Below the pieces are notes generated by a model. It worked only from the letters and a program-made list of their open reading frames with translations, made no database searches and was not told the DNA's origin. Below, piece by piece: positions 35,065 through 35,085 of a stretch of 64,000 bases of DNA. Source of the stretch: Escherichia coli (GTDB lineage: Bacteria; Pseudomonadota; Gammaproteobacteria; Enterobacterales; Enterobacteriaceae); the NCBI RefSeq assembly GCF_046105845.1, contig NZ_CP151004.1. The stretch is one strand, 5' to 3'. Numbering within the stretch: the first letter of the stretch is position 1; every line of letters starts with the position of its first letter. The position numbers were made by a program, and so were the translations under genes.

Positions 35065-35085
35065 GGTATAACAGGTATAAAGGTG
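35065..35085. promoter_or_regulatory. NanR operator (GGTATA repeats) in the fimB-nanC intergenic region
   Basis: ggtataacaggtataaaggtg: two exact GGTATA hexamers plus a degenerate third, about 420 bp upstream of nanC. Confidence 0.65.

What the first reader, a model, noticed from the sequence alone, without database searches (positions are those of the whole stretch)
35065..35085. NanR GGTATA-repeat operator upstream of nanC in the long fimB-nanC regulatory region
The sequence ggtataacaggtataaaggtg matches the hexameric repeat recognised by the sialic acid repressor NanR. This region is also known to couple sialic acid and GlcNAc sensing to fimB expression, and the roughly 1.4-kb AT-rich spacer has no convincing gene.
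Basis: partly seen in the sequence, partly recalled or inferred. Interest (0 to 1): 0.3.

Follow-up and report, generated by a model that had tools for sequence, protein, structure and literature searches.

The report
Known NanR operator between fimB and nanC
This is the already published binding site of the sialic-acid repressor NanR in the E. coli fimB-nanC spacer, which switches the nanCMS sialic-acid uptake genes off and helps keep the fimbrial switch gene fimB on; it is real, conserved and ordinary.

Summary
The 21-mer GGTATAACAGGTATAAAGGTG is exactly at 35065-35085 (+), and is unique in the window. It does not occur by chance: 0 of 100 shuffles matched, even with 3 mismatches allowed. 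It lies in the 1452-bp AT-rich spacer between fimB (- strand) and nanC (+ strand) of an E. coli chromosome.

A 27-bp core (35058-35084) is identical to the nanA and nanX/yjhB NanR operators. It comprises TT, a GATC, two perfect GGTATA repeats and the GGT of a third. The third repeat is degenerate here (GGTGCA).

The 50-mer around it is 100% identical in 4500 of 5426 complete E. coli genomes. In an alignment that includes a divergent Escherichia lineage, the longest invariant run of the whole spacer is 35032-35084.

Anchoring on the published SlyA sites puts the operator at -744 to -764 from the fimB start. This matches the published O_NR position of "around 760 bp".

Held papers report NanR binding in this spacer (genomic SELEX), NanR repression of nanCMS and NanR activation of fimB.

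The feature is already known, so interest is low. The one open nuance is what the fixed two-and-a-half-repeat architecture means for NanR stoichiometry.

The parts
35065..35087 (+). NanR operator (published name O_NR). Repeat 1 is GGTATA at 35065-35070, repeat 2 is GGTATA at 35074-35079, and the degenerate repeat 3 is GGTGCA at 35082-35087.
   Evidence: Sequence read. Unique in the window and not a chance match. Identical to the nanA and nanX operators through the GGT of repeat 3. Literature: PMC8012715 and PMC3658417.
35058..35084 (+). 27-bp core TTGATCTGGTATAACAGGTATAAAGGT, shared base for base by the three NanR operators (nanC, nanX/yjhB, nanA).
   Evidence: Alignment A1: 27 of 27 identical in all pairwise comparisons, against 35-81% in the flanking segments.
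35060..35063 (.). Dam site GATC, ending 1 bp 5' of repeat 1. It is conserved at all three NanR operators.
   Evidence: PMC5155068 reports that NanR binds within 5 bp of a GATC at nanA, nanC and yjhB, and that methylation at these sites changes over time.
35032..35084 (+). Longest invariant block of the whole fimB-nanC spacer across 9 genomes, including the divergent lineage E69. It is the presumed nanC promoter plus operator module, and is also the stretch that matches the nanX upstream region at 90.6%.
   Evidence: (P about 1.5e-4 for a run of 53 or more under random placement of the variable sites). The nanX match is hit H15.
35064..35072 (+). Candidate extended -10 element TGGTATAAC of the nanC promoter, embedded in repeat 1. 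This is inferred, not mapped.
   Evidence: Sequence inspection. The simple sigma-70 scan found no two-hexamer promoter here. If correct, the nanC start is near 35079 and the leader is about 424 nt.
35010..35025 (+). CRP-like site TGTGAcacgaaTTGCA (8 of 10 consensus positions), centred about 61.5 bp upstream of the inferred nanC start. This is inferred.
   Evidence: The TTT-GTGA columns are invariant across the nanC, nanX and nanA upstream regions. There is one change in E69. CRP activation of nanC is recalled from Condemine 2005, which is not held.
34991..35009 (.). Conserved stretch AGAAAAAGATCGACATATT holding a second GATC (34998-35001). It is the probable location of the NagC operator O_NC1. 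This is inferred from published distances and was not verified.
   Evidence: Only 1 change against E69 (34997), while sequence further upstream is about 50% identical. [quoted passage not shown]
34800..34830 (.). Conserved island inside the hypervariable middle of the spacer, at about -480 to -510 from the fimB start. It is the probable NagC operator O_NC2. This is inferred.
   Evidence: island conserved in E69, flanked by diverged sequence and a 17-bp indel; distance.
34489..34515 (-). SlyA operators O_SA1 (34489-34500, TTAGCTTGATAA here, TTAGCATGATAA in K-12) and O_SA2 (34504-34515, CTAGGGACCTAA). They were used as anchors to place the fimB transcription start at about 34321.
   Evidence: Published positions are -179 to -168 and -194 to -183 (PMC3173223).
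33448..34050 (-). fimB (type 1 fimbrial switch recombinase), activated at a distance by NanR bound at the operator.
   Evidence: ORF. Collinear with the annotated K-12 fimB. Literature.
35503..38390 (+). nanCMS operon, repressed by NanR: nanC 35503-36219, nanM 36239-37345, nanS 37410-38390.
   Evidence: Literature.

Best explanation
The site is the NanR operator of the nanCMS-fimB divergent region, named O_NR in the literature.

Without sialic acid, dimers of the GntR-type repressor NanR bind cooperatively to the direct GGTATA repeats. There are two perfect repeats here and a degenerate third. The repeats overlap the probable nanC promoter, whose -10-like TATAAC and TATAAA hexamers lie inside them, so NanR binding shuts off nanCMS. 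From about 750 bp away, bound NanR also raises fimB expression together with NagC, which favours OFF-to-ON switching of type 1 fimbriae.

When Neu5Ac enters the cell it binds NanR and weakens DNA binding. nanCMS is then derepressed and fimB expression falls.

Shown here: the sequence, its identity to the nanA and nanX operators, its position and its conservation. Taken from the literature: NanR binding, repression of nanCMS and activation of fimB. Inferred: the exact nanC promoter and start site, the CRP site, and the NagC and IHF site positions.
For: - **Presence:** exact sequence at the stated coordinates, unique in the window, with 0 of 100 shuffles matching.
- **Identity to known operators:** a 27-bp core identical to the K-12 nanA operator and the nanX operator, including the adjacent GATC and the 3-nt and 2-nt spacers.
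- **Orthology:** the spacer is collinear with the K-12 fimB-nanC region at 96.4% identity.
- **Position:** the operator sits at -744 to -764 from the fimB start, against the published 'around 760'.
- **Conservation within E. coli:** the 50-mer 35040-35089 is 100% identical in 4500 of 5426 complete genomes, and at least 95% identical in 5076. The one O157:H7 difference lies outside the GATC and the repeats.
- **Conservation beyond typical E. coli:** with the divergent lineage E69 included (88-90% nt identity over the locus), the longest invariant run of the spacer is 35032-35084.
- **Literature:** the GGTATA operator occurs in all three operons, and two repeats are enough for nanomolar cooperative binding (KD 25 nM), giving two complexes instead of three (PMC8012715). 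There is a NanR SELEX peak in the nanC/fimB spacer (PMC5934670; PMC4797297). NanR activates fimB (PMC3173223). nanCMS is induced in nanR mutants (PMC3658417).
Against: - No binding or expression experiment exists for this particular strain; everything functional is transferred from K-12.
- The third repeat is only a 4-of-6 match (GGTGCA), so the three-dimer complex described for the nanA-type operator may not form here.
- The simple sigma-70 scan found no consensus promoter on the + strand at the operator. Promoter overlap therefore rests on sequence inspection and on analogy with nanA.
- The primary papers that mapped O_NR and the nanC start are not in the held library: Sohanpal 2004 and 2007, Kalivoda 2003 and 2013, and Condemine 2005.
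- One SELEX paper states the regulatory signs the other way round, contrary to the specialist papers.
Confidence: 0.95

Rival explanations
1. The match is a chance occurrence of AT-rich hexamers in an AT-rich spacer, with no function.
For: The spacer is 29-43% GC, and short TATA-containing words are common in such DNA. The two-repeat pattern with one mismatch occurs in 14 of 100 shuffles of the window.
Against: - The full 21-mer never appears in shuffles, even with 3 mismatches allowed.
- 27 bp are identical to two other NanR operators.
- The block is the longest invariant run of the spacer across lineages.
- It is perfectly conserved in 4500 genomes.
Confidence: 0.01
2. The block is conserved because it is the nanC core promoter (a -10 region with upstream elements). 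NanR binding at this copy would be incidental or non-regulatory, a leftover from duplication of the nanA promoter-operator cassette.
For: TATAAC and TATAAA hexamers and a TG-extended -10 lie within the repeats. The invariant block extends 33 bp upstream of the repeats. The third repeat has decayed to GGTGCA, or GGTACA in E69.
Against: - The two functions are not exclusive. Operator-promoter overlap is how NanR is expected to repress.
- The literature reports NanR-dependent regulation of nanCMS and of fimB, and SELEX binding in this spacer.
- Two repeats are sufficient for high-affinity binding.
Confidence: 0.03
3. The site serves another regulator of the region (NagC, CRP, IHF, H-NS or SlyA) rather than NanR.
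For: The spacer is crowded with regulator sites. A loose NagC-like T4-N9-A4 pattern with one mismatch overlaps 35055-35071.
Against: - The pattern hit is weak, and such patterns are common in AT-rich DNA.
- The SlyA and H-NS sites map about 570 bp away.
- The published NagC sites are separate operators.
- Base-for-base identity with nanA and nanX points to NanR, the regulator those operons share.
Confidence: 0.01

Closest known systems
O_NR, the NanR operator of the E. coli K-12 nanC-fimB intergenic region (Sohanpal et al. 2004 and 2007; Kalivoda et al. 2013; cited through PMC3173223, PMC8012715, PMC5934670)
   Same: It has the same sequence: K-12 matches 35032-35089 at every base. It has the same flanking genes, the same distance to the fimB start (about 750-760 bp) and the same adjacent GATC. 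The K-12 MG1655 equivalent of the 21-mer is 4,539,922-4,539,942 on the minus strand, derived.
   Different: Nothing in the operator differs. The strain differs from K-12 at about 3.6% of spacer positions. This includes three polymorphic bases right after the site (35090-35092) and one base in the SlyA site O_SA1.
nanA operator of the nanATEK-yhcH operon, the (GGTATA)3 operator used for the NanR cryo-EM and AUC work (PMC8012715)
   Same: The 27-bp core TTGATCTGGTATAACAGGTATAAAGGT is identical, with the same repeat spacing and the same GATC.
   Different: - The third repeat is GGTATA at nanA but GGTGCA here.
- nanA lies 45 bp upstream of its start codon, whereas this site is 418 bp upstream of the nanC ATG.
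- This copy also acts on a divergent gene (fimB) about 750 bp away.
- Outside the core the flanks are only about 35-57% identical.
nanX (yjhB) operator of the nanXY/yjhBC operon
   Same: It has the same 27-bp core, and further similarity upstream: 53 bp at 90.6% and 21 of 26 in 35032-35057. This suggests the nanC and nanX promoter-operator modules are duplicates.
   Different: nanX has three perfect repeats. nanXY is absent from this window: the operator occurs once in the window, and the nanS-to-leuX interval carries other genes.

Membership tests
NanR (GGTATA-repeat) operators of the E. coli sialoregulon | Two or more direct GGTATA repeats in close, fixed spacing (spacers of 2-3 nt) | tested here: met
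   GGTATA-ACA-GGTATA-AA-GGTGCA at 35065-35087: two perfect repeats and a third matching 4 of 6. Spacing is as described in PMC3658417. Two repeats suffice for binding (PMC8012715).
NanR (GGTATA-repeat) operators of the E. coli sialoregulon | Three perfect GGTATA repeats, the (GGTATA)3 form that binds three NanR dimers | tested here: not met
   The third repeat is GGTGCA here and in typical E. coli, and GGTACA in E69. The family as published includes nanCMS despite this, so this is a variant within the family rather than an exclusion.
NanR (GGTATA-repeat) operators of the E. coli sialoregulon | Sequence identity to the experimentally defined nanA operator | tested here: met
   27 of 27 identical over 35058-35084 against the K-12 nanA and nanX operators.
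NanR (GGTATA-repeat) operators of the E. coli sialoregulon | Located upstream of a NanR-controlled sialic acid operon | tested here: met
   418 bp upstream of the nanC ATG, followed by nanM and nanS.
NanR (GGTATA-repeat) operators of the E. coli sialoregulon | Overlap with the regulated promoter (repression by occlusion) | tested here: inconclusive
   -10-like hexamers and a TG-extended -10 lie inside the repeats, and a CRP-like site lies at the class I distance. However, the consensus scan found no promoter and no transcription start data were available.
NanR (GGTATA-repeat) operators of the E. coli sialoregulon | Binding by purified NanR, relieved by Neu5Ac | not testable with these tools
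   Literature only. There is a SELEX peak in the nanC/fimB spacer. Neu5Ac attenuates binding 28-fold on the nanA-type operator. One SELEX study reports that NanR stays bound at nanC/fimB with Neu5Ac present.
NanR (GGTATA-repeat) operators of the E. coli sialoregulon | Adjacent Dam GATC site | tested here: met
   GATC at 35060-35063, ending 1 bp from repeat 1 and conserved in all three operators. See also PMC5155068.
Distal fimB activating elements (O_NR, O_NC1, O_NC2) of the nanC-fimB spacer | [quoted passage not shown] | tested here: met
   The fimB start is placed at 34321 from the published O_SA1 and O_SA2 coordinates. The operator then lies at -744 to -764.
Distal fimB activating elements (O_NR, O_NC1, O_NC2) of the nanC-fimB spacer | Companion NagC operators and an IHF site between the operator and fimB | tested here: inconclusive
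   Conserved islands occur at the expected distances, 34991-35009 and 34800-34830. A loose NagC pattern scan did not identify them, and the primary papers with the footprints are not held.

The most novel reading that the evidence does not exclude
The nanC/fimB copy of the operator is held as a two-and-a-half-repeat site. GGT of repeat 3 is invariant, while the rest varies: GGTGCA in at least 4500 genomes, GGTACA in E69. On this reading the site assembles a two-dimer NanR complex rather than the three-dimer complex of nanA and nanX. The different stoichiometry would give it a different Neu5Ac response. This would fit the SELEX report that NanR stays bound at nanC/fimB with Neu5Ac present. It would also suit its second job as a long-range activator of fimB.
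Probability: 0.2. Interest if true: 0.35.

Novelty: already known. Interest (0 to 1): 0.08.

Why it matters
The site links host-derived sialic acid, an inflammation signal, to two responses. One is uptake and processing of sialic acids through nanCMS. The other is down-regulation of type 1 fimbrial phase switching through fimB. That link is established K-12 biology.

This analysis adds three things. The operator is intact in this non-K-12 strain. Its core is nearly invariant across more than 5000 E. coli genomes and a divergent Escherichia lineage. It forms the best-conserved block of an otherwise fast-evolving 1.45-kb spacer. The circuit is therefore likely to operate generally across E. coli, not only in K-12.

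Tried and rejected
- **Cross-species nanC scan:** the scan of genome contigs with NanC returned only two loci (E. coli E69 and a 462-bp contaminant-like contig). A wide comparison of orthologous nanC upstream regions was therefore not possible, and E69 served as the single divergent comparator.
- **Promoter scan:** the simple sigma-70 and terminator scan of the spacer found no + strand promoter at the operator and fewer promoter-like sites than the shuffles. The nanC promoter assignment remains an inference.
- **NagC sites:** a loose NagC-like pattern (T4-N9-A4), modelled on the single LEE1 site quoted in PMC5401889, did not pick out convincing O_NC1 or O_NC2 sites. I therefore placed them only by published distance and conservation.
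- **RNA families:** an Rfam search of the spacer and the presumed long nanC leader found nothing at E up to 1.
- **ORF 34311-34706:** this 131-aa ORF was considered as a possible gene and rejected. It is interrupted in K-12, E69 and five other genomes, and its variable sites show no third-position bias (9, 14, 17 by codon position).
- **Primary papers not held:** Sohanpal 2004, Kalivoda 2003 and 2013, and Condemine 2005 could not be fetched, and Sohanpal 2007 and El-Labany 2003 did not appear in full-text searches. Statements about IHF lying midway between the NagC sites, the 212-bp spacing, and CRP, OmpR and CpxR control of nanC come from my memory of their abstracts and are marked as such.

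Full report
**Observation.** The string ggtataacaggtataaaggtg is at 35065-35085 on the + strand, exactly as reported. It is the only match in the 64-kb window on either strand, even with three mismatches allowed. None of 100 dinucleotide-preserving shuffles produced a match. The two-repeat pattern GGTATANNNGGTATA with one mismatch allowed also occurs only here, where 0.16 matches are expected by chance.

The repeats begin at 35065 (GGTATA), 35074 (GGTATA) and 35082 (GGTGCA), with spacers ACA and AA. So there are two perfect repeats and a third matching 4 of 6. A GATC sits at 35060-35063, ending one base before repeat 1.

**Setting.** The window is an E. coli chromosome segment. It runs uxuRBA, gntP and fimHGFDCIA through fimE and fimB, then the spacer, then nanC, nanM and nanS. 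After that comes a leuX-associated island, then ahr and idnKDOTR.

- fimB is at 33448-34050 on the - strand and nanC at 35503-36219 on the + strand.
- The spacer, 34051-35502, is 1452 bp and 29-43% GC.
- It is present in 5020 of 5426 complete E. coli genomes at 95-98% identity. The best match is 97.7%, so this strain is not in that collection.
- The one sizeable ORF in the spacer (34311-34706, 131 aa) is intact here, but is broken in K-12 (stop at codon 89), in E69 (stop at codon 2) and in five other genomes (frameshift). Its variable sites show no coding signature.
- Rfam finds nothing in the spacer.

**Comparison with the other NanR operators.** The K-12 nanA operator reads ttgatctGGTATAacaGGTATAaaGGTATAtcg. 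The nanX (yjhB) operator of another strain reads ttgatctGGTATAacaGGTATAaaGGTATAcag. In a four-way alignment, the 27 bp at 35058-35084 (TTGATCTGGTATAACAGGTATAAAGGT) are identical in all three operators, while flanking segments are 35-81% identical.

The nanC and nanX copies share more sequence: 53 bp at 90.6%, found by megablast in a genome that lacks the fimB-nanC spacer (H15). This suggests the promoter-operator module was duplicated. The third repeat is GGTATA at nanA and nanX but GGTGCA at nanC.

**Conservation.**

- The 50-mer 35040-35089 is 100% identical in 4500 genomes and at least 95% identical in 5076 of the 5078 that have a match, out of 5426.
- The single difference in the O157:H7 genome examined is T to C at 35059, outside the GATC and the repeats.
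- I aligned the spacer from the window, K-12, six further E. coli genomes spread down the identity ranking, and E69. A tenth genome, B20127, has the fimB-proximal part replaced by IS1; it was aligned but left out of the variable-site counts.
- E69 is a lineage only 88-90% identical over this locus, and it represents a separate species cluster in the GTDB-based collection.
- Across the nine genomes counted, 358 of 1452 columns vary, and the longest invariant run is 35032-35084.
- Under random placement of the variable sites, a run of 53 or more occurs in 0.015% of trials. Because variation is clustered this overstates the significance. Even so, local identity to E69 is only 0.76-0.82 in the two 100-bp bins that contain the block.
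- The invariant run stops at the GGT of repeat 3. E69 has GGTACA there, and the three bases after the site (35090-35092) are polymorphic within E. coli.

**Position relative to fimB.** McVicker et al. (PMC3173223) place the SlyA operators O_SA1 (TTAGCATGATAA) at -179 to -168 and O_SA2 (CTAGGGACCTAA) at -194 to -183 from the fimB transcription start. In the window O_SA2 is exact at 34504-34515 (-), and O_SA1 is at 34489-34500 (-) with one substitution.

This puts the fimB start at about 34321 and the NanR site at -744 to -764. [quoted passage not shown] The site in the window is therefore O_NR.

**What the literature says it does.**

- Horne et al. (PMC8012715) list the GGTATA operator in nanATEK-yhcH, yjhBC and nanCMS.
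- They show cooperative nanomolar binding of three NanR dimers to (GGTATA)3.
- They find poor binding to one repeat. Binding to two repeats is similar in affinity (KD 25 nM) but gives only two complexes.
- Neu5Ac attenuates binding 28-fold.
- Vimr (PMC3658417) reports that nanCMS and yjhBC are induced in a nanR mutant and carry NanR operators. He also reports that close relatives of E. coli have such an operator only at nanA.
- Genomic SELEX with purified NanR recovers the nanC/fimB spacer (PMC4797297; PMC5934670). The latter adds that NanR remained at this site in the presence of Neu5Ac.
- Westphal et al. (PMC5155068) note that NanR binds within 5 bp of a GATC at nanA, nanC and yjhB, and that methylation at those sites changes with growth phase.
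- One SELEX paper states the regulatory signs the other way round. I follow the specialist papers.

**Mechanism.** Shown here: the site, its paralogy, its orthology to O_NR and its constraint. Taken from the literature: NanR binding, repression of nanCMS, activation of fimB and release by Neu5Ac. The remaining points are my inferences.

- *nanC promoter.* The promoter overlaps the operator. TGGTATAAC at 35064-35072 is a TG-extended -10, giving a start near 35079 and a leader of about 424 nt.
- *CRP site.* TGTGAcacgaaTTGCA at 35010-35025 is a CRP site at about -61.5. Its TTT-GTGA columns are invariant across the three promoters. The simple promoter scan did not support or contradict this.
- *NagC and IHF sites.* E69 is nearly identical to the window from 34991 to 35084, and again in an island at about 34800-34830, while the sequence between is only about 50-65% identical. 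These positions fit the published distances for O_NC1 and O_NC2. An IHF-like sequence at 34909-34921 lies midway between them, but varies among strains. I could not verify these sites, because the footprinting papers are not held and a loose NagC pattern scan was uninformative.

**Verdict.** The feature is already known in detail in K-12. The strain in the window carries it unchanged.

The one point that is not settled in the papers I could read is what the fixed two-and-a-half-repeat architecture of the nanC/fimB copy means for NanR stoichiometry and inducer response. That is a modest question.

Noticed in passing
window 34311-34706 (+): A 131-aa ATG ORF lies inside the fimB-nanC spacer and is intact in this strain. 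One RefSeq genome annotates an 81-aa hypothetical protein in the same area. The ORF is broken by stops or frameshifts in K-12, E69 and five other genomes, and shows no coding pattern of substitution.
   Followed up: yes
window 34450-34990: The middle of the spacer is hypervariable: 52-76% identity to lineage E69, a 17-bp indel near 34762, and dense polymorphism at 34850-34950 within E. coli. The fimB-proximal 400 bp and the operator block are conserved. The published IHF site between the NagC operators should fall in this variable part.
   Followed up: partly
window 34489-34500 (-): The SlyA operator O_SA1 reads TTAGCTTGATAA here and TTAGCATGATAA in K-12. The position is polymorphic among E. 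coli, and its effect on SlyA/H-NS control of fimB is unknown.
   Followed up: no
L014 1501-1535 (E. coli PEC41, nanR-nanA spacer): In this strain the nanA operator itself has a degenerate third repeat (GGTGTA instead of GGTATA). Third-repeat decay is therefore not confined to the nanC copy.
   Followed up: no
L012 (E. coli B20127) 788-1500: An IS1A insertion has removed fimB and the fimB-proximal 260 bp of the spacer. The NanR operator and nanCMS remain intact, so nanC control survives without fimB.
   Followed up: no
window 38545-54787: Between nanS and tRNA-Leu(CAA) (54703-54787, -) lies an island that differs from K-12 KpLE2 and lacks nanXY/yjhBC. It contains:
- an HNH/phosphorothioate-DNA-binding endonuclease (38545-39474)
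- the YjhR helicase (39785-43393, -)
- IS remnants
- three large methyltransferase-like proteins (45928-47718, 47715-49763, and 49773-53018 with weak Eco57I/N6_Mtase hits)
- a split integrase (53267-54662, -)

Only 2 of 5426 complete genomes cover at least 80% of 30000-54000.
   Followed up: partly
window 8223-13463 (+): A 1746-aa inverse autotransporter of the intimin/invasin type, with an IAT_beta domain and many Big_1 and Invasin_D3 repeats. It is unrelated to the finding.
   Followed up: partly
L005 (Terrisporobacter petrolearius assembly, 462-bp contig): A 462-bp, low-coverage contig in a Clostridia genome assembly encodes E. coli NanC residues 96-238 at 99% identity. This is almost certainly E. 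coli contamination of that assembly.
   Followed up: no
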